A stretch of 64,000 nucleotides of DNA, from positions 98,325,098 through 98,389,097 of the forward strand of contig NC_052148.1 of the NCBI RefSeq assembly GCF_902713615.1, given 5' to 3'. Under the pieces are notes generated by a model. It did not search any database. It had not been told where the DNA came from and saw nothing but the letters and a program-made list of their open reading frames with translations. Made by a program: the position numbers and the translations under genes. Shown piece after piece: positions 1,436-51,460 of the stretch. This stretch comes from Scyliorhinus canicula (lineage: Eukaryota). Numbering within the stretch: position 1 is the first letter of the stretch; each line of letters opens with the position of its first letter.

Positions 1436-1728
1436 TGTGGTGAATCACAGTCCGTGTTATTCACACTGTTATTATATATGATGTACTGTGTCTGTGTAAG
1501 CTCGGTATACGAGCAGTTGCGCGGCTCTGCCCCTAGGGGGAGATGAGGAGTTTGTACTGGGCTCCGCCCATGGCTCCGCCCATGGCTCCTCCTACTAACC
1601 AGAAGTATGAAGCATGGCAGTCTGAGCCTGCCTGCCAGTTCATCTCGTCACAGGCAGGCTCCGTTGTAAGATCATTAAAACTACTGTTCACTTCCAACTA
1701 CGAGTCTTGTGAATTGATGGTCACATCA
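1436..1728 (+). mobile_element. Solo LTR, Gypsy family related to 13193-17558
   Basis: TGTGG...CATCA termini, perfect 5-bp TSD CAGAC (1431-1435 / 1729-1733), ATTAAA signal, clear similarity to 22678-22994. Confidence 0.92.
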
Positions 1729-12738: not shown

Positions 12739-13496
12739 ATTTTCACCGGGAACGGGTGTTCTCGCCCATTCCATCATGGCTCCAGATGCGCCATGAGGTG
12801 GCACAGATCTCTCACGGTCTCCCTGCTCAACCTCAGTCAGTGGCGGAACACTCGATCCGGCATGTCTTCGTACAACAAGCGCTGCCGGTATACACGAGGC
12901 CTGATGCGATGCACTCCTCCTCAGCCTGTTGGGCGGCTGGCTCTCCATCAACACTAACTGGTCCCTCTTCTGTGGGGCAGGCTCCTATTCTGCAGGACCC
13001 TCCCCAAACAGCTCCTGCTCGTGCAACCTCAGTGCATCCATCAGGGTTACGGCAGCTAGACAGATGCCAACCATTCCTGACTCGATACTAATATCCATTT
13101 TCTGCAGGAGGTAAAGGGCAGACATGTTAGCATGGTGAGTATCCATGCCCAACCAGGTCCAAGGGGCTACACGGTGGTCCTGGTTTGCACTGTGTGGTGG
13201 TATGAATGGGAGCACTGCCATTGGTGCAGAGCATTGGTCTCCCATTGGCTCTGGCTGGTCATGTGCCTCTTGTCTGATTGGCTGGGACTAGTCATGTGAC
13301 TGCTCACCAATTGGTCGAGAGGGAAGTAGACCCCGCCTCTGAGGCGGGGTATTAGTACCCAGAGTTCCCGGCGGTCAGCCTTTCTCTGTAGTCGACCACC
13401 GGGCTAACAACTAGCTGATTAAAGCCAAAGTTTGGATCTTCATCGTGCCTCGCGCCCAATTGATGGTACATCAATTTAATCAGCTAGAATTTTGAA

Positions 13497-14260
13497 ATGG
13501 AGCTACGCATCAAGCCTGACTGCCTCCGCATCAGCCCGCATGCTTCAAATGCGCCTGCAATCTTTAAACATTGGCAGGCGTGTTTCAACAGTTACCTGAC
13601 AACTGCAGCCAGCAAACACACCAAGGAGCAGAAACTCCATATCCTCTACTCGTGCGTGGGCACAGCGGTATATTCAATGATCGAGGACGAAAATGATTAT
13701 GACGCGGCCATGGATATTCTGAGAAGACACTTTCTCCGGCCGGTCAACGAAGTATACGCACGGCATCTCCTGACTACTAGACAACAGTTCCCTGGTGAGT
13801 CATTCGACGAGTTCTACCAGGCCCTCACGGCTCTAGGGAGAAGTTGCGCCTGTCCCCAAGTTTCTGCGACTGAGCACATGGAACTTTTAATTAGAGATGC
13901 TTACATTGCAGGCATGCAATCCTCCTCTATCCGCCAACGATTGCTGGAGAAGAACGCCCTCAGCTTAGCTGAGGCACGGACCCTCGCAACCTCCCTGGAG
14001 GTCGCCGACCTGAACGCCCGCGCATACGCCCCCGGCCGCGCAGCAACCCCCTGGACTTCATGGCACGCACCGCCTCCGTCCACCGCTGACCCCGACCCCC
14101 CCCCAGGCCTGCGCCATGGGTCGCTCCGACATGCTAACGGGGCCCCGCTGCTATTTTTGCGGCCTCTCCAAACACCCCCGCCCGCGTTGCCCGGCTCTGC
14201 TCCGCTCTGTGTAAGAGCTGCGGGAAGAAGGGCCATTACGCTGTGGTCTGCCAGACCAAG
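13497..14260 (+). pseudogene. gag: Gypsy gag (frameshifted), two CCHC zinc knuckles
   Basis: ATG 13497 MELRIKPD..FKHWQACF..YARHLLTTRQQFPGESFDEF; CYFCGLSKHPRPRC at 14149 and CKSCGKKGHYAVVC at 14210 lie in shifted frames. Confidence 0.88.
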
Positions 14261-14589
14261 TCGGTCGTTGCTGTTCCGCGCAGCGACCACGGATCACCCC
14301 CCCCCCCCAGGCCCTCCCAGGGCCCAGCGCTGCGCACAGACCTCTCCGGCCCGCCTCCCAGCCCCGCAACAGGCTCACGGTCCTCCCGACCCCCGCTCCC
14401 GGCTGCCCCGACCGGCCCGCAGACGCCGCTGACACTGCCCCCAGCTGCCACGAGGTTCCCACGGGCGCCGCCATCTTGGGTCCTGGACGCCACGTGCGGG
14501 TCCTGGGCGCCGCCACCTTGGGCAAACACAGGAGGCCCTGCCAGCGATTACTCTGCCACCGAGGAATATCTGGAACTCTCGCCACGACT

Positions 14590-17062
14590 TGCTTCCATCA
14601 CACTCGACCACGCACGCTCGCCAAGACTACGACAACGATCCAGCTCAACGGGCATGAGACGAAATGCCTTCTGGACTCCGTGAGCATGCAAAGTTTTGTC
14701 CACCCCGACACGGTAAGACGCTGCGCGCTCCCCATCCACCCAGTCAAGCATAAGATCGATTTGGCCTCGAGTTCGCACTCCGTCCAGATCACCGGGTGCT
14801 GCATAGCGGACCTCACGGTCCAGGGGAGGGTTTTCAAAAACTACAAACTCCTCATTCTCCCCCGTCAATGCGCTGCGGCACTCTTGGGCCTGGATTTCCA
14901 GTGCAATCTGCAGAGCTTGACCTTCCAATTCGATGGCCCAATTCCCCCCCTTACTGTCTGCAGCCTCGCATTCCTCAAAGTGGATCCCCCTTCCTTGTTT
15001 GCTAATCTCACCCCAGATTGTAAACCTGTCACCACTCGGAGAAGACGATACAGTGCCCAGGACCGGACCTTCATCGGGTCTGAGGTCCAGAGGCTCCTTA
15101 AGGAAGGAGTTATCAAGGTCAGCAACACTCCCTGGCGAGCCCAAGTGCTGGTAGTTCGGACTGGGGAGAAAAACCGGATGGTCATCGATTACAGTCAGAC
15201 CATCAACAGGTTTACGCAGCTGGACGCGTATCCTCTCCCCCATATTTCCGACCTGGTTAACAGGATCGCAAAGTACAAAGTCTTTTCCACGGTGGATCTT
15301 AAATCTGCCTACCACCAGCTCCCCATCCGCGCGAGTGACCGCAAGTACACCGCGTTTGAGGCAGATGGGCGCCTCTACCACTTCCTCAGGGTTCCCTTCG
15401 GTGTCACAAATGGGGTCTCGATCTTCCAACAGGAGATGGACCGAATGGTCGACAAGCACGGGTTACGGGCTACCTTCCCGTATCTCGATAACGTCACCAT
15501 CTGCGGCCACCAGCAGAACCATGACATCAACCTTCAAAAATTCCTCCGACCCGCTAAACTCCTTAATTTAACCTACAATGAGGATAAGTGCGTGTTTAGC
15601 ACCGATCGCCTAGCCATCCTTGGCTACGTAGTGCGTAACGGAGTGATAGGCCCCGATCCCGAACGCATGCGCCCCCTGATGGAACTCCCTCTCCCCAACT
15701 CCCTAAAATCCCTCAACCGCTGCCTGGGCTTCTTCTCCTATTACGCCCAGTGGGTCTCCAACTACGCCGACAAAGCCCGCCCCCTCATCCAGTCCACCTC
15801 CTTCCCCCTGTCGATGGAGGCCCGCCAGGCCTTTAGCCGTTATCAAAGCGGATGTCGCAAAGGCCACGATGTATGCTATCGACGAGTCCCTCCCATTCCA
15901 GGTCGAGAGCGACGGGTCTGATGTAGCTCTGGCAGCCACCCTGAACTAGGCGGGCAGACCCGTGGCCTTCTTCTCCCGGACCCTCCACGCTTCCAAAATC
16001 CGCCACTCCATGGTGGAAAAGGAGGTACAGGCCATAGTCGAAGCTGTGCGATATTGGAGGCACTATCAGGCCCTATCACTATCAGGAAGTTTACCCTCCT
16101 CACAGACCAACGGTCAGTGGCTTTCATGTTCGATAATGCATAAAGGGGCAAGATCAAGAATGACAAGATCTTGCGGTGGCGGATCGAGTTGTCCACGTAC
16201 AACTACGATATCTTGTACCGTCCTGGGAAGCTCAACGAGCCTCCCGATGCCCTATCCCGCGGTACCTGCGCCAGCGCGCAGCTTGACCGCCTCCGCTCCC
16301 TCCACACGGACCTCTGCCATCCAGGAGTCATCCGTTTTTACCACTTTATTAAGACCCACAACCTGCCCTACTCCGTCGAGGAAGTCAGGACCGTCACCAG
16401 GGACTGCCACGTCTGCGCCGAGTGCAAACCGCACTTCTACCGCCCCGAACGAGCGCATCTGATCAAGCCGTCCGCCCCTTTGAACGTCTCAGTATAGACT
16501 TCAAGGGTCCCCTCCCCTCCAACAACCATAACACATATTTCTTGAGTGTTATTGATGAGTACTCCCGCTTCCCTTTCGCCATTCCCAGTCCCAACATGAC
16601 CACATGAACGTCTTCTTGTTTTCCCCAGGAAGTCGTCCTCAGGATCCCCTCTCCCGACCTGGCTGGCCACCCCCGGGCCCATCCTGCTCCGGAAGCATGT
16701 GCGGGTGCACAAGTCCGACCCGTTGGTTGAGCGAGTCCAGTTACTCCATGCCAACCTGCAGTATGCAGGATACGGTCTCGCTTTGGGACCTGGCAGCCGC
16801 CGGCGTGCGGCCTTCTCCTCTTACATCAACACCTCCCCCCCAACCCCAATTTCCCCCAGCGCCCCCTGCGCACCCACGACCCAGCGCACAGATATCCTCT
16901 TCCCCGATTACAGCGTCTCCACCACCGGCCCAGGGTATGGAAACACATCTACAACCAATTCTCCCAGAGGCAAGGACGACCACCGGCCCGACGTCACCGG
17001 CTCCAATGCGACGGTCCACCAGAACACCACGGGCACCCGACAGGCTGATTGTGTCCATCTGA
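14590..17062 (+). pseudogene. pol: Gypsy pol (protease, RT, RNase H, integrase), frameshifted, integrase core deleted
   Basis: LLDSVS protease; RT motifs RMVIDYSQTIN, DLKSAYHQ, VPFGVTNG, YLDNV; RNase H AFFSRTL; HHCC (HTDLCHPG..CHVCAEC); IDFKGP..VIDEYSRF, after which the sequence jumps at ~16603 to the C-terminal part. Confidence 0.93.
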
Positions 17063-20000
17063 TGCAACCATGGGACTTTATTGGACTCTATTGTAATTTT
17101 CTTTGCACTCTAATGTAGTTAGTATTGTTCATTTAGCCACGAGCCATGGGCATCCCCCATCTTCTCGATTGTCTCTACTCATACCACCAGTCCTTGGACC
17201 GCCCCCCCCTCTCTCTCTCTCTCTCTTCCCCTTACAACACCCATCCCCCACCCGCCTTCTTTCTCCACAAGGGGTGAATGTGGTGGTATGAATGGGAGCA
17301 CTGCCATTGGTGCAGAGCATTGGTCTCCCAATGGCTCTGGCTGGCCATGTGCCTCTTGTCTGATTGGCTGGGGCTAGTCATGTGACGCTCACCAATTGGT
17401 CGAGAGGCAAGTAGACCCTGCCTCCGAGGCGGGGTATAAGTACCCAGAGTTCCCGGCGGTCGGCCTTTCTCTGTAGTCGACCACCGGGCTAACAACTAGC
17501 TGATTAAAGCCAAAGTTTGGATCTTCATCGTGCCTCGCGTCCAATTGATGGTACATCACACTGCAGCCCCTGTCCCAGCCTGCCACACCACCCATTTCCA
17601 CCTCCAACTCTGACCGTACCCCCTGACACTTCGCTCTCCACACGCCGGCCCTGTTGGTGCCTGGAACCTGGTGCCTCTGACCATGCCACCCTTCCTTGCC
17701 AGCAGAGATACCAGTGACTGGCACTATCCATGTCAGCAGTACATTCTGCGTCCCCTGTCCTGCACCCTCCTGTAGGGTCTATTGTGGGGAACCACTCTGG
17801 TTGGGCCATGTGATACCCCGGCAGAAGGGGGAGGGGGGTGGGCACAGTGCATCACTGTCGGGCGCCATGCTTAATGGCATGCATGCCATTGGATGGGACT
17901 CAGCCTGGGGAGGGCACTCGTTAGGACCACAGGGATGACAGCAGCGGCGCACAGGTGGTATGTACTTGTCTGGGGGCAGGATGGATGGAGACAGGGACAC
18001 AGTTGGCAGGCAGGGCTTGATGTCAGCCGGTGGTCCTGCGGGGTGGGCTAGCTGATGGCGCTACTGGCGAGATGTCTGCCTTGCGAGGGGCAGTGTGCCA
18101 GTGTGGGTGCCAATGTCCACCATACATGCGTCCGCCAGCCAGGGTGGATTCCACGGTTCCCCTGCTGCCCCTGCAGTGGGGCAATGTCTCGGATTGGTGC
18201 CAACATCTGGTGGGCCACAGGCTACACTGTGATATATCCATCCAATTGATGGGCTGGCTGGCATCTGTGGACCCCTAGAGGGTGAACTGGGTGGAGGGGG
18301 GCATCCCTATGGCTTGTGGTGCTCTGTGCATCTATGGACCACAGTGGGCAGTCAATGGGGTGCGCAGCCAGATGAATGCCTTGCAGGCCACAGCAATGAC
18401 GGTCTGTGGCCAGACACCACGGTCCTGGGGGAAACTCGCCCTGGAAGACGCCTCCCGACCAACGGCACAACTGTCAGGCCTTTAGTAACTTTGCTTACCT
18501 CCTCTCCCTCCCTCATCGACCACAGTGCTTGTTTCCCAATTTTAAATGCCGTAAGTGAACCAAGCCATTGTCACTTCCACCTGGCAGAGGCAGAGCATCA
18601 TGGGAGACTTGGTAATACCGGCTCAGGCCTGGTAATCTATGCTAATTACTGTTACTGTACAATTTGCAAGCCCACATCGGCGCTTGTGTGGCACGCATTT
18701 ACGCCACCATCGCCACATCGGAGCATGGCATTCTGTTGGGCACCCATGCGATTCTCCGCCTGATCACGATTCCGGCATCGCTGGATGGAGAATGCCGCCA
18801 GAAGGGTTTGGTGTCCCTAGAATTCTGCTGCTTTTTTCCTCAATGTGGAAAAGGTTGGAGCAGAGATGATACTGTTAATAGGAACCTTGATGAGTTGCTG
18901 CAGTTCATCGTGTGCATTGTACATACTCCAGCCTTTGTGTATCAGTGCTTGAGGTGGTGGAATTTGATTCCAGTGGCAGTGACATCAACCAAATAAACTG
19001 CTCTATCGTAAACAGTATTGAGCATTATTGTAGTTACATCCGTCCAGTAAATGGTTGATATGGCTGGTCCAGTTCAGCTTCTGGTCGGTGGCGAAACCAG
19101 GAGATTGATGGTGGGAGGTTTGGTGATGGTGATTTCATTGAAGGTGGTCTAGTATCTCCTGGTGTGTTCTGGACTGTACCCTCAGCCTGATATAGGGCCA
19201 ACTGCGCAGCTCCACTCAAGCAGATTTGTCGCCATTCACTTGCTTGATGGAGGAGGTGGAAACAGTGTGAATTCTGGAAGATGACACCATCTTGTCAACC
19301 TACCTTCTTTTTATTTACCAGGCTTCAGAAAAACAAAGAAAATAATTCCCCAACCCTACTTCCGAATTCTGAAACCTACACTTCTGGCAGAGAGCCAGCA
19401 GGTCGCAGTCTGCTTGAATTCACCTGCTTAGTCTCAGGAACGTTTGTTTCTCGCATTATTGTTTCAACAGTGAGGACAACTCTTTGTTTATGGATAATAT
19501 TGTTCCCTCAAATAACACCATTAAAAATGTTGTTTTATATTACTAACAGAAAATGTCTCCAATGTTTGCTTACATAATGACAGCTACTTCTGAAGTAATT
19601 AACAGTGTGAAGTACTTTGAGATATAATAAAACACTATTGGCATGAAACGCATTGCTGCTGGAGGGTGCATTACAGAGGCCTAATTTTGCTTTGCTGTGG
19701 TGCGATGCACTGCCAGACGCTTTCTATGCCGCCCGTGTGGTGTCCCATCAGGAGGAGGGTCTTCGTGGGGGTTTCCGCAGACTATGTCAGAATGCTGTGA
19801 GTGCACACTACACTAACACCACGGAGCCCAACTGTCTGATACACTTCCAGAATATCAAATGTAGACCACACATGTCCATGCAGCAAATTGGTCAATTCAT
19901 CAACTCATTCATCAACGAATAAGATGGGCCCTACGCTCGTCTTCCTTAAAGCGCAAGCATAACAAAATTACAACTAAGCCTTTAAGTGCCAGGAAGTACT

Positions 20001-22677: not shown

Positions 22678-22994
22678 TGTGGTGAATTATAAACACTAAT
22701 AATCCACACTGTATTTTACAACATGTGTTGAGCCTGTACCTTGTACTAGATGATGTGTAGTTGCACGCCTCTACCCATAGGGGGAGATGAGGAGTTTGTA
22801 CTGGGCTCCACCCTTGGCTCCGCCCATGGCTCCGCCCATAGCTCCTCCCCTAACCGGAAGTATAAAGGTTGCTGTTGTGAGCCTGCCTGCCAGTTCATCT
22901 AGAGTTCATCTCGCTACAGGCAGGCTCTGTTGTAAGACGATTAAAACCACTGTTATCTTCTAACCATGTGTCGCGTGAATTGATGGTCTCATCA
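22678..22994 (+). mobile_element. Solo LTR inserted in L1 ORF2
   Basis: TGTGG...CATCA, TSD GCAGC (22673-22677 / 22995-22999), TATAAA and ATTAAA present. Confidence 0.93.
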
Positions 22995-33750: not shown

Positions 33751-34120
33751 GCAGCACGGTCAGCACGATAGCATTGTGGGTAGCACAATGGCTTTACAGC
33801 TCCAGGGTCCCAGGTTCGATTCCGGCTTGGGTCACTGTCTGTGTGGAGTCTGCACATTCTCCCCGTGTGTGCGTGGGTTTCCTCCGGGTGCTCCGGTTTC
33901 CTTCCACAGTCCAAAGATGTGCAGGTTAGGTGGATTGGCCATGATAAATTGCCCTTAGTGTCCAAAATTGCCCTTAGTGTTGGGTGGGGTTACTGGGTTA
34001 TTGGGATAGGGTGGAGGCGTTGACCTTGGGTAGGGTGCTCTTTCCAAGAGCCGGTGCAGACTCGATGGGCCGACTGGCGTCCTTTTGCACTGTAAATTCT
34101 ATAAATTCTATGATCTATGA
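33751..34120 (+). mobile_element. Full-length HE1/V-SINE-like SINE, CR1-type tail
   Basis: A and B boxes, core, tail ending TCTATGATCTATGA. Confidence 0.9.
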
Positions 34121-39435: not shown

Positions 39436-39779
39436 ATGGTGACATTTCCCAGTGCTTCCCACATCCCAGTTATATTTTTGAACATTCTGCTCCACCTCAA
39501 CCACTCATTCGCTACAAAATTTGCCTATGCTTGGCCAATATTTAGATAATTGCATCAAACCCAGCGATCAAGCAAAAATCCTGTCAATATATTTGGTTTT
39601 GCTGGATTTACTACATTTACTTATATAATTTGCTTGTTTTCATTAATGGCTTAGAAATTGAAGGAAATCAGATTTTTAAACATTATAACATTGACATTGG
39701 AGCAGATAGGTTGGGAGAATTAACGTTTGACTAAAGTGAATGGTGAATCGCATATTTAGAAGTCCTATCATGGTTGGCA

Positions 39780-40655
39780 CCTTCATAGCTAGCACCCTCC
39801 ATACCAGGCAACATCCTGGTGAACCTCCTCTGCACCCTCTCTAAAGCATCCACATCCTTCTGGTAATGTGGTGACCAGAACTGCACGCAGTATTCCAAAT
39901 GTGGCCTAACCAAAGTCCTATACAACTGTAACATGACCTGCCGACTCTTGTACTCAATACCCCGTCCGATGAAGGCAAGCATGCTGTATGCCTTCTTGAC
40001 CACTCTATCGACCTGCGTTGCCACCTTCAGGATACAATGGACCTGAACTCCCAGATCTCTCTGTACATCAATTTTCCCCAGGACTCTTCCATTGACCGTA
40101 TAGTCCGCTCTTGAATTAGATCTTCCAAAATGCATCACCTCGCATTTGCCTGGATTGAACTCCATCTGCCATTTCTCTGCCCAACTCTCCAATCTATCTA
40201 TATTTTTCTGTATTCTCTGACAGTCCTCCTCGCTATCTGCAGCTCCACCAATCTTAGTATCATCTGCAAACTTGCTAATCAGACCACCTATACATTCCTC
40301 CAGATCATTTATGTATATCACAAACAACAGTGGTCCGAGCACGGATCCCTGTGGAACACCACTAGTCACCTTTCTCCATTTTGAGACACTCCCTTCCACC
40401 ACTACTCTCTGTCTCCTGTTGCCCAGCCAGTTCTTTATCCATCTAGCTAGTACACCCTGAACCCCATACGACTTCACTTTTTCCATCAACCTGCCATGGG
40501 AAACTTTATCAAATGCTTTACTGAAGTCCATGTATATGACATCTACAGCCCTTCCCTCATCAATTAACTTTGTCACTTCCTCAAAGAATTCTATTAGGTT
40601 TGTAAGACATGACCTTCCCTGCACAAAACCATGCTGCCTATCACTGATAAGTTTA
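39780..40655 (-). mobile_element. CR1 LINE RT fragment with open frame
   Basis: 297-aa ORF: SCLTNLIEFFE, YMDFSKAFDKV, SGVPQGSVLGP, FADD. Confidence 0.95.
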
Positions 40656-41251
40656 TCACCATTTGCTCCTACTTAGATACTGAAGCATTCCATGGCTGTA
40701 AGCAAGAAGACATGGGCGAAAAGTGGCAAGTAATGTTCATGCTACATTCATTATCGTCTGCTTTAAGCAGGTAAATCTCAACTGACACTTTGCCCCTGCC
40801 CCCCCCCCCTTCTAAGTTTGGAGCTATGGCTCTTGTTAAAGATTTAGAGAAATGAAAATCTGCAAGAGAGTGAAATCTAAAGAAACATTTTAATCACATG
40901 GAATATTCACCGTCCATAGAAACGCTTATTAACTGATGGAAGATGGACTGATCATTAGGAAGAAGTACACAACGGCTGAAGTATCTAACCTCAGCCTCAG
41001 AAATCAGATTAAATCATGTTTATAGGGGACTTCCGGTGGCGGCAATGCGGAGCTAAGCCGCACGTTCGGCAGCTCCCGCTAAAAACGGAATTTGGGGCTC
41101 TTTTCAGGGCCCCCAACGGAACTTCGACGATGAATCCCGACGTGGGAAGGGGTCTGGAGTAGATCGCTAAGGTCCTATAGTCCGGACCAGGAGTGGGGTG
41201 AGAGGAAAAACAGTGGAAGCGCCCCTGGAAAAGCGGGGGAAGAGAAACAAA

Positions 41252-42022
41252 ATGGTGGCCGGCGGAGCCCTCGAGGAGCTGAGGCAGTGGGCGCAGGAAC
41301 AGCAGGAAACTCTGCTGCACTGCTTCCAGGAGCTTAAGGTGGAGCTGCTGGAGTCGCTGAAGGCTACCACCAGAGAGTTGATGGAGACCCAGACAGCCCA
41401 GGGGGCCGCAATCCGGGAGCTGCAGCAGCAGGCCTCCGCAAGGGAGGATGAGGCCGTGGCCGTCACGGGGAAGGTGGAGATGCACGAGGCGCTCCATAAA
41501 AAGTGGCAGGAGTGGTTCGAGGAGCTGGACAACCGGTCGAGGCGGAAGAATTTGCGGATCCTGGGCCTCACGGAGGGGCTGGAGGGGTCGGACCTGGCGG
41601 CCTATGTAGTCGTTATGCTGAACTCGTTGATGGGAGCTGGGTCCTTCCAGGGGCCCCTGGAGTTGGAGGGGGCCCACAGAATTCTGGCCAGGAGGCCCAA
41701 GCCAAACGAGCTGCCGCGGGCAGTGTTGGTGCGGTTTCACCGGTTCGTTGATCGTGCGTACGTGCTCCGGTGGGCCAAGAAGGAGCGGAGCCGCAAGTGG
41801 GAGAACACGGAGGTGCGGATCTTCCAGGACTGGAGTGCAGAGGTGGCTAAGCGGAGTGCCGGGTTCAACCGGACGAAGGCGGTGCTCCACAGACGGAGCG
41901 TGAAGTTTGGCATGTTGCAGCCGGCGCATCTGTGGGTCACCTACAAGGACCGGCACCATTATTTTGAGTCCCCGGAGGAGGCATGGGCCTTTGTGCAGGC
42001 CGAGAAACTGGACTCAAACTGA
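41252..42022 (+). CDS. L1 ORF1 protein (coiled coil, RRM, CTD), open frame of 256 aa from the first ATG
   Basis: DNRSRRKNLRILGLTEG, LEGAHR, PRAVLVRF, IFQDWS, QPAHLWVT..FESPEEA motifs. Confidence 0.85.
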   Translation: MVAGGALEELRQWAQEQQETLLHCFQELKVELLESLKATTRELMETQTAQGAAIRELQQQASAREDEAVAVTGKVEMHEALHKKWQEWFEELDNRSRRKNLRILGLTEGLEGSDLAAYVVVMLNSLMGAGSFQGPLELEGAHRILARRPKPNELPRAVLVRFHRFVDRAYVLRWAKKERSRKWENTEVRIFQDWSAEVAKRSAGFNRTKAVLHRRSVKFGMLQPAHLWVTYKDRHHYFESPEEAWAFVQAEKLDSN

Positions 42023-42360
42023 GGGTCAAAGATGGGGGATTTTGTATGATAATGTAATTGTGTTTAATTTTTGCTCTGGGGGGGGGGGGGGGGTTCTCTG
42101 TTTAATGCAAGATGTGTGTTGGCTTTAGGGTGGGTGGGGCGATGTCGTTATGTCTTTTTGTATGGGTCGGGTGGACGGGTTCGGGCAGGGAGGTAAACTG
42201 GGAGTGCGGGGAGCTGGTGGTGGGGACTGGCAATGGGAGTTGCCCTGGAGGAGGCGGGGTTAGGCAGGGCGAAAGCGCGGGCTTTTCTCTGGTTTCCCAC
42301 GCTGTGGGATGATGGGGGCGGGGTCGGGGCTGAGAAGCGCGGGCCGTTGCTGGCTGTTAT

Positions 42361-42646
42361 TGATGTACCATCAATTGAACGCGAGACGAGTTGCTGGACA
42401 AAAGTATGGCTTTAATCTGCTAGATGTTAGCCCTGCGGTCGATTACAGTATAAGGACGACCGCCGGGAGTACTGAGTATTTATACCCTGCCCTGGAGGCG
42501 GGGTTAACACAGCCTCTCGACCAATCGGGGAGCTGTCACATGACTGATCTCAACCAACCGGTCGAGAGGCACATGACCGACCAGGGCCAATCGTAAGCCG
42601 GTGTTCTGCACCAATGGCAGGCAGTTATGCTAATCATACCGCCACA
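42361..42646 (-). mobile_element. Solo LTR in the L1 inter-ORF spacer
   Basis: Reverse strand TGTGGCGGTATG...AATTGATGGTACATCA, TSD GTTAT (42356-42360 / 42647-42651); close relative of the 13193 LTR. Confidence 0.93.
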
Positions 42647-48055: not shown

Positions 48056-48285
48056 GGGGTGGCACGTGGCACAGTGGTTAGCACTGCTTCCTCACGGCGC
48101 TGAGGAACCGGATTCGAATCCCGGACCTGGGTCACTGTCCGTTGGAGTTTGCACATTCTCCCCGTGTCTGCATGCGTTTCACCCCCCCGGGTAGATGTGC
48201 AGGGTAGGTGGATTGGCCACGCTAAATTGCCCGTTCATTGGAAAAAAATTTAATTGGGTACTCTAAATTTATTTATTTTTTAAAT
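48056..48285 (+). mobile_element. Short V-SINE-like SINE
   Basis: tRNA head and the AAATTGCCC..TTGGAAAAAA..GGGTACTCTAAATTT end. Confidence 0.8.
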
Positions 48286-51110: not shown

Positions 51111-51460
51111 GGGCAGCACGGTAGCATATTGGTTAGCATAATTGCTTCACAGCTCCAGGGTCCCAGGTTCGATTCCCGGCTTGGGTCACTGTCTGTGCGG
51201 AGTCTGCATGCTCTCCCCGTGTGTGCGCGGGTTGCCTCCGGGTGCTCCGGTTTCCTCCCACAGTCCAAAGATGTGCAGGTTAGGTGGCTTGGCCATACTA
51301 AATTGCCCTTAGTGTCCAAAATTGTCCTTAGTGTTGGGTGGGGTTACTGGGTTATGGGGATAGGGTGGGGGTGTGGGCTTGGGTGGGGTGCTCTTTCCGA
51401 GGGCTGATGCAGACTCGATGGGCTGATTGGCCTCCTTCTGCACTGTAAATTCTATGATCA
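51111..51460 (+). mobile_element. Full-length HE1/V-SINE-like SINE inside an L2 remnant
   Basis: Near-identical to 33751-34120; the left flank reads ILLDLFAGFDIVDH (L2 RT-like). Confidence 0.9.

What the first reader, a model, noticed from the sequence alone, without database searches (positions are those of the whole stretch)
13405..13490. Gypsy element without a tRNA primer site: the PBS position folds back onto the LTR's own poly(A) signal
Seen: the 5' LTR ends at 13473 and is followed by ATTTAATCAGCTAG, not the TGG expected for tRNA-CCA priming. TTTAATCAGCTAG (13475-13487) is the exact 13-nt reverse complement of CTAGCTGATTAAA (13411-13423), which contains the LTR's ATTAAA poly(A) signal. 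An overlapping alternative stem AATTGATG-gta-CATCAATT spans the LTR/internal junction. The 13-nt partner exists only after the 5' LTR. Established: Tf1/sushi-group elements self-prime from RNA complementary to their PBS, and retroviruses can occlude the 5' poly(A) signal by RNA structure. Inference: this Mag-like family may use one fold both to self-prime reverse transcription and to silence 5' LTR polyadenylation. That geometry differs from Tf1, where the extreme 5' end of the RNA pairs with the PBS.
Basis: partly seen in the sequence, partly recalled or inferred. Interest (0 to 1): 0.72.

Follow-up and report, generated by a model that had tools for sequence, protein, structure and literature searches.

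The report
Jumping gene primes with own RNA
This jumping gene and its many relatives carry a primer site that matches a piece of their own end-repeat holding the poly(A) signal instead of a tRNA, and faulty genomic copies whose extra matching sequence stops at the RNA start site indicate that it very likely begins copying itself with the first ~44 bases of its own RNA.

Summary
Confirmed and extended. The window holds a decayed 4.4-kb Gypsy element (LTRs 13193-13473 and 17279-17558, 5-bp target duplication). Its primer site (13475-13487) is the exact complement of 13411-13423, which ends in ATTAAA; 0 of 5000 shuffles reach 13 nt. Across 36 distinct primer sites in sister families the pairing covaries (permutation p<5e-5), including ATTAAA/TTTAAT to AATAAA/TTTATT. 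It recurs in 9 of 17 distant loci. RNA reads place the cap about 30 nt below TATA (sister family; homologous to 13380) and poly(A) about 17 nt after ATTAAA, so the paired piece is RNA nt ~32-44, not the 5' tip as in Tf1. New here: 51 aberrant genomic copies continue with the complement of R beyond the primer site; 26 run to the LTR start, 13 stop at 35-50 nt (at or below the cap), only 1 at 51-170. This indicates a capped ~44-nt self-primer, cut after ATTAAA, left attached and copied. The cutting enzyme and silencing of the 5' poly(A) signal are untested; 'Mag' membership is untested. The scan noted this clade's pairing four times before on other genomes.

The parts
13188..13192 (.). left target-site duplication (CACTG)
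   Evidence: repeated at 17559-17563
13193..13473 (+). 5' LTR (281 nt, TG...CA)
13350..13355 (+). TATA box (TATTAG in this LTR, TATAAG in the 3' LTR and most copies)
13380..13423 (+). inferred self-primer: capped RNA nt 1-44; start inferred by homology to the cap mapped in a sister family
   Evidence: template-switch-oligo reads at L068:1412; copied complement in L202 ends at LTR position 188 = 13380; pile-up of run ends
13411..13423 (+). 3' part of the primer that pairs with the primer-binding site
13418..13423 (+). poly(A) signal ATTAAA; inferred cut lies just 3' of it (13423/13424)
   Evidence: poly(A)-tailed reads of family copies leave the sequence after 13438 (11 reads); inverted U5 pieces end 1-2 nt from the hexamer end in 5 aberrant copies
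13438..13441 (+). poly(A) addition site of the LTR (approximate)
   Evidence: 13 tailed reads at the homologous place in a sister family
13458..13476 (+). short U5 hairpin abutting the primer helix; takes up the A at 13474
   Evidence: predicted only
13474..13474 (+). single A between LTR end and primer-binding site; first base to be copied
   Evidence: never pairs with the R segment in 34 of 34 primer-site types scored
13475..13487 (+). primer-binding site, complement of 13411-13423
13497..14432 (+). gag reading frame (ATG 23 nt after the LTR), frameshifted before the zinc knuckles
14215..16770 (+). broken pol: protease, reverse transcriptase (YLDN), RNase H, partial integrase
   Evidence: Pfam hits; frames
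17267..17278 (+). polypurine tract
   Evidence: sequence
17279..17558 (+). 3' LTR; no complementary partner follows it
17559..17563 (.). right target-site duplication (CACTG)

Best explanation
The element very likely primes reverse transcription with its own capped 5' end: the primer site is complementary to RNA nucleotides ~32-44 ending in the poly(A) hexamer, a cut is inferred just after the hexamer, and the resulting ~44-nt primer is inferred to stay attached and be copied. Steps: (1) transcription starts about 30 nt below TATA (shown for a sister family, carried over to 13380 by homology); (2) nt 32-44 pair with the site 1 nt past the LTR, closing a 50-nt loop (complementarity and covariation shown, the fold predicted); (3) a cut 3' of ATTAAA makes the primer's 3' end and the end of the strong-stop template (position inferred from aberrant copies; the enzyme, by analogy with Tf1 the element's RNase H, untested); (4) strong-stop DNA jumps using only the ~17 nt between the cut and the poly(A) site (inferred); (5) plus-strand synthesis copies the attached primer, which rewrites the primer site from R each cycle and so would enforce the covariation (inferred). 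The same helix would hide the 5' poly(A) signal until packaging (predicted, about even odds).
For: Covariation: 74 of 80 junctions picked without reference to the primer site are gag-followed; 36 distinct primer sites give mean own-LTR complement 9.6 nt versus 5.6 swapped, permutation p<5e-5; four Watson-Crick pair types at +8 and +9. 10 of 10 loci chosen only for a TTTATT site had AATAAA in the LTR. Distant relatives: 10-16 bp in 9 of 17 loci, 7 families. Cap: 9 reads with the template-switch oligo at L068:1412, 29 nt below TATA, 34 nt above the paired piece; poly(A) after 1473. Primer copies: of 55 distinct aberrant junctions 51 could be anchored; 26 run to the LTR start, 13 of the other 25 stop at 35-50 nt, 1 at 51-170; none of 14 short runs with a TATA found ends above TATA+28; L202 ends exactly at 13380. 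Strong-stop end: 5 of 8 inverted U5 hits end 1-2 nt from the hexamer end; six elements carry one 60-nt deletion in both LTRs whose right joint follows ATTAAA, arising repeatedly (5 changes on the tree, AU p=0.0003). In Tf1 the primer is likewise copied onto cDNA ends (PMC11042837, passages).
Against: No biochemical test; no RNA 5' end at the cut was seen. The cap rests on 9 reads (agreement 0.73) from one run and one sister family, and probably from short LTR-only transcripts. Aberrant copies were picked by patterns that demand 18-30 nt of complement, 5 of 35 matches were not fetched, run ends depend on the reference LTR, and the uniform null used for the p-values is crude. The 26 long runs need only complementarity and a fold-back, not an RNA primer. 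The 60-nt deletion (7 events) is only weakly above controls at other short repeats (2 and 0 events). 32 of 74 junctions keep under 10 perfect pairs (decayed copies). A second AATAAA in the loop of one distant family (0.56 unpaired) argues against occlusion being universal.
Confidence: 0.87

Rival explanations
1. Classical Tf1 geometry: the packaged RNA starts at the paired piece (about 13411), so the primer is the 11-13-nt 5' tip.
For: Established mechanism in Tf1/sushi (PMC10085805, PMC4600332 passages). Caps were mapped only on reads that probably come from short LTR transcripts.
Against: Cap maps 34 nt upstream of the paired piece at the usual distance from TATA; copied complements extend 35-50 nt, to the cap, not 13.
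Confidence: 0.04
2. The primer is the same capped piece but supplied in trans by the short cap-to-poly(A) transcripts of solo or 3' LTRs, trimmed back to the helix; or it is the 3' copy of R.
For: Short capped and tailed LTR transcripts exist. Long aberrant runs include U3, which the 3' copy of R carries.
Against: The 5' copy is 50 nt away in cis and forms first; strong-stop ends at the hexamer and the recurrent deletion fit a cut in the template RNA itself; long runs stop at the LTR start rather than entering the polypurine tract, and 3 of 7 with a visible upstream LTR start have 5-bp duplications, as expected for fold-back of plus strong-stop DNA.
Confidence: 0.05
3. The helix is only a poly(A)-occluding structure; priming uses a tRNA fragment or another host RNA, and the aberrant copies come from DNA template switching at an inverted repeat.
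For: The hexamer or a variant is in the paired piece in all families scored; HIV-1 hides its 5' signal in a hairpin (PMC2645353 abstract). Only 13 distinct tRNA genes were tested.
Against: The site varies in at least 36 ways in step with the LTR, which no fixed host RNA could follow; longest complement to the tRNAs tested is 5 nt; DNA-level switching gives no reason for ends to pile up at the cap.
Confidence: 0.04

Closest known systems
Tf1/Tf2 (Schizosaccharomyces pombe), Tj1, Tosmo, sushi and Tcn1: the self-primed Tf1/sushi chromoviruses
   Same: No tRNA site; primer site just past the 5' LTR is complementary to the element's own R; primer retained and copied onto cDNA (Tf1; PMC11042837); helix flanked by a U5 stem.
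   Different: There the self-primer is the 5' tip of the RNA within a three-duplex 'pretzel' (PMC10085805) and integrase has a chromodomain. Here the paired piece is nt ~32-44 of a ~44-nt capped primer, always ends in the poly(A) hexamer, and no chromodomain family is listed in 120 of 120 closest proteins.
TAR lineage of plant Ty1/copia (Houba, Osr-1), predicted self-priming
   Same: Self-priming predicted outside the Tf1/sushi group from LTR-PBS complementarity (PMC6317226 passages).
   Different: Copia, plants; no link to the poly(A) signal in the passages seen.
HIV-1 polyA hairpin
   Same: An RNA helix covers the poly(A) hexamer near the 5' end (PMC2645353 abstract).
   Different: Local hairpin present at both ends and unrelated to the tRNA-Lys3 primer site; here the partner exists only after the 5' LTR and is the primer site.
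Mag lineage of Ty3/Gypsy (A, B, C clades)
   Same: Short LTRs, 4-5-kb size, 5-bp target duplication as tabulated for mosquito Mag elements (PMC3286476).
   Different: Those use tRNA-Leu, -Ser or -Arg sites; placement of this clade (RT mostly YLDN, integrase DFKGPL) was not tested by a tree with named references.

Membership tests
Ty3/Gypsy LTR retrotransposon | TG...CA LTRs with target-site duplication and polypurine tract | tested here: met
Ty3/Gypsy LTR retrotransposon | gag, then protease-RT-RNase H-integrase order; RT closest to Ty3 among solved structures | tested here: met
Tf1/sushi self-primed chromoviruses | primer site complementary to own 5' LTR, no tRNA site | tested here: met
Tf1/sushi self-primed chromoviruses | self-primer at the extreme 5' end of the RNA | tested here: not met
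   cap maps 34 nt upstream of the paired piece; copied primers are 35-50 nt
Tf1/sushi self-primed chromoviruses | chromodomain at the integrase C-terminus | tested here: not met
   no chromodomain Pfam entry among 120 listed homologues; this copy's own integrase is partly deleted, so the test rests on relatives
Tf1/sushi self-primed chromoviruses | RNase H-dependent cleavage that frees the primer | not testable with these tools
   cut position inferred from aberrant copies only
Tf1/sushi self-primed chromoviruses | RT phylogeny inside the chromovirus branch | not tested
   no named reference sequences were available from the tools
Mag lineage | 5-bp target-site duplication, short LTRs | tested here: met
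   comparison table in PMC3286476
Mag lineage | primer site complementary to tRNA-Leu/Ser/Arg (as reported for Culex) | tested here: not met
   no TGG start; at most 5 nt to 13 distinct host tRNA genes (partial set)
Mag lineage | RT/RNase H tree placement with Mag, SURL, CFG1, Gulliver, Hydra2-1 | not tested
   references not obtainable

The most novel reading that the evidence does not exclude
A large animal-wide, non-chromovirus Gypsy clade evolved a second kind of self-priming in which one helix is both the primer duplex and the switch that hides the 5' poly(A) signal: a capped ~44-nt RNA ending in the poly(A) hexamer is cut out as primer, stays on the cDNA and rewrites the primer site from R in every cycle.
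Probability: 0.5. Interest if true: 0.82.

Novelty: new variant of a known kind. Interest (0 to 1): 0.72.

Why it matters
Self-priming is described in the papers read as a mark of the Tf1/sushi chromoviruses (and a predicted trait of one plant Copia lineage). Here it appears in an abundant, chromodomain-less Gypsy clade with over 4000 LTR-gag-type junction matches in this genome and relatives across invertebrate-like loci, with a different geometry: a long capped primer whose business end is the poly(A) signal. It bears on how often tRNA-free priming arose, on how short-R elements avoid stopping in their 5' LTR, and on escape from tRNA-fragment control. The aberrant insertions act as a fossil record of reverse-transcription intermediates, a method that can map primers of any family without a bench assay.

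Tried and rejected
tRNA priming: 13 distinct tRNA genes from 30 loci gave at most 5 nt of complement; the set is partial, so covariation carries the argument. Reads on the focal family gave the poly(A) site but no cap among the rows shown (13 loose-end rows were hidden); the pile of read starts at 13358-13359 is on the antisense side and unexplained. No run was indexed as an RNA holder (no evidence either way). Viral contigs held no relative. A first tree of deletion copies on 1400 nt was spoiled by three interrupted copies; it was rebuilt on 600 nt without L069, L080, L085 and without L071, L086 (same elements as L100, L101). The recurrent deletion as proof of the strong-stop end: downgraded to weak because a control repeat also gave 2 events. 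Whole-leader folding energy is not exceptional (z -1.6); the helix itself is (pair probability ~1.0 at its centre). Conservation of the U5 hairpin cannot be judged because the search patterns required it. Splice-acceptor-like runs before the paired piece were seen but not pursued. Clade naming through papers failed; no listed paper contains YLDN. Three primary Tf1 papers were not held.

Full report
Observation. The window holds a 4.4-kb LTR element: 5' LTR 13193-13473, 3' LTR 17279-17558 (271 of 280 aligned positions identical), CACTG on both flanks and a purine tract before the 3' LTR. gag starts at 13497; protease, RT and RNase H are recognised by Pfam and the RT is closest to Ty3 among solved structures. 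The copy is broken by stops, frameshifts and an integrase deletion. The closest named proteins are from sharks and rays, then cnidarians, a damselfly and a sea cucumber. After the LTR comes one A (13474) and then 13 nt that are the exact complement of 13411-13423, ending in ATTAAA. None of 5000 LTR shuffles reached 13 nt; after the 3' LTR the best complement is 6 nt. Of 30 closest copies the junction was located in 28, and 27 of those keep 13-14 bp.

Covariation. Two patterns that ask only for an LTR end and an ATG 18-28 nt later gave 1867 and 2416 matches. I examined 80 junctions (30 + 30 returned loci and 20 chosen for differing primer sites); 6 were dropped for lacking a recognisable gag start. 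Among the 74, 42 keep at least 10 perfect pairs and 37 at least 12. For 36 distinct primer sites the mean complement to the own LTR is 9.6 nt against 5.6 for swapped LTRs (permutation p<5e-5). In the 34 with an intact hexamer, positions +2 to +13 pair in 27-34 of 34, with four different Watson-Crick pair types at +8 and +9, while +1 pairs in 0 of 34. Ten loci picked only because their site read TTTATT all had AATAAA in the LTR; overall 11 of 12 TTTATT sites do. Related copies are not independent, so the p-value overstates; the multiple pair types do not depend on it.

Distant relatives. Of 17 loci from metagenome and genome collections (RT 42-70% identical), 9 show 10-16 bp in the same register, covering AATAAA, ATTAAA or AGTAAA, with loops of 23-50 nt; they form 7 families. 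Three contigs begin downstream of the signal and five lack the junction. Their hosts are unknown. Against 13 distinct host tRNA genes the focal site has at most 5 complementary nt (a partial set).

Where the RNA starts and ends. On the focal family 11 single-cell reads carry a poly(A) tail after 13438. On a young, expressed sister family, 13 reads are tailed after L068:1473, 16 nt past ATTAAA, and 9 reads carry the template-switch oligo joined at L068:1412, 29 nt below TATA (agreement 0.73, one run). The same base in the focal LTR is 13380. The paired piece is therefore about nt 32-44 of the RNA, and ATTAAA is a used poly(A) signal. [quoted passage not shown]

Fossil evidence for the primer. 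If the primer is a piece of R that stays on the minus strand, plus-strand synthesis can copy it past the usual 13 nt; Tf1 cDNA keeps such primer copies (PMC11042837, passages). Three pattern searches (6, 35 and 25 matches, 5 of the 35 not fetched, some overlapping) gave 55 distinct junctions; 4 could not be anchored. Of 51, 26 run through U3 to the LTR start, 13 stop at 35-50 nt, 4 at 18-30, 1 at 63 and 7 at 173-238 (several of the last probably reflect imperfect reference LTRs). Counting one restart (L207) and one end set by eye (L257), 14 of 23 ends of 30 nt or more fall at 35-50 and 1 at 51-170 (p about 1e-10 against a crude uniform null). None of the 14 short runs with a TATA found ends upstream of TATA+28 (one of them later proved long). 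L202 stops exactly at 13380 and then jumps into pol; L201 copies 7 extra nt and resumes the normal leader. The long class is explained by plus strong-stop DNA folding back on its own R; 3 of 7 with a visible upstream LTR start have 5-bp duplications. It needs only complementarity and is not counted as evidence for the primer. The edge at the cap is the discriminating result.

Evidence for the cut. In 5 of 8 aberrant copies with an inverted U5 hit, the inverted piece ends 1-2 nt from the hexamer end, as strong-stop DNA would if the template were cut there. Six elements of the young family carry the same 60-nt deletion in both LTRs, between a 9-nt repeat in U3 and its twin right after ATTAAA; they are scattered on the family tree (5 changes, AU p=0.0003, 21 rows, five left out as listed under Tried and rejected), so they are repeated by-products that did not spread. 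Mis-transfer of a strong-stop DNA ending at the hexamer would make them, but control repeats gave 2 and 0 events against 7, so this is weak.

The poly(A) question. In the predicted leader the hexamer is 0.13 unpaired, in the 3' context 0.59; sense reads cross the 5' junction. Priming alone does not require that the paired piece hold the hexamer, yet it does in every family scored, which suggests a second role, as with the HIV-1 polyA hairpin (PMC2645353, abstract). Against this, one distant family has a second, largely open AATAAA in the loop, closeness to the cap may itself weaken a 5' signal (recalled, not from a call), and the A-run may instead be what the nuclease reads. I put occlusion at about even odds.

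What is known. Searches of the open library listed self-priming only for Tf1/sushi/Tcn1 chromoviruses and, as a prediction, plant TAR Copia elements (PMC6317226, passages). I saw passages of PMC3601003, PMC3286476, PMC12471100, PMC13524379, PMC6238403, PMC6934838 and PMC5341516; none of those passages describes this pairing. No supplements were read; subscription journals, Repbase and GyDB were not searchable, and I have a vague, unverified recollection of Repbase notes on self-priming in fish Gypsy families, so prior mention cannot be excluded. The element works like Tf1 but fails two membership features (primer at the 5' tip; chromodomain, none listed in 120 homologues). Mag membership is untested. 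This scan noted the same pairing four times on other genomes; a look-up for the primer-copy evidence returned nothing.

Verdict. Real feature; self-priming by a capped ~44-nt R fragment ending in the poly(A) signal, confidence 0.87; dual role in poly(A) silencing about 0.5; new variant of a known kind; interest 0.72.

Noticed in passing
L225, L232, L235 (G000 loci): Small head-to-head units, LTR + A + inverted R-U3, flanked by 5-bp target duplications: apparently folded-back plus strong-stop DNA integrated by its two U3 ends.
   Followed up: partly
L100-L106 (G000): Six elements and one solo LTR of a young 266-match sister family share one 60-nt LTR deletion that removes start site, primer piece and poly(A) signal; present in both LTRs and arisen repeatedly.
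   Followed up: yes
window 1436-1728 and 22678-22994: Solo LTRs of sister families with 5-bp duplications (CAGAC, GCAGC); another LTR end of the clade lies on the minus strand near 42360-42375.
   Followed up: partly
window 14992-15840 and homologues: RT active-site motif is YLDN in this copy and Y-x-D-N in 95 of 120 homologues (YLDN 79), with integrase motif DFKGPL in 96 of 120: a handy signature of the clade.
   Followed up: partly
L062, L192, L198: A pyrimidine-rich run ending in CAG, like a splice or trans-splice acceptor, lies shortly upstream of the paired piece in these distant relatives.
   Followed up: no
L191, L194, L195: A second AATAAA sits in the loop 15 nt after the paired one.
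   Followed up: partly
L189-L199: Contigs of these animal-type retrotransposons are filed within bacterial metagenome-assembled genomes, most likely host contamination.
   Followed up: no
window 13358-13359: Many reads of three oligo-dT runs begin here on the antisense side of the LTR; unexplained.
   Followed up: no
window 39731-42013 (minus strand); SINE copies at e.g. 33763-34102, 48061-48272, 51116-51455: A further reverse-transcriptase frame (Pfam RVT_1, probably a LINE) and many tRNA-derived SINE-like repeats.
   Followed up: no
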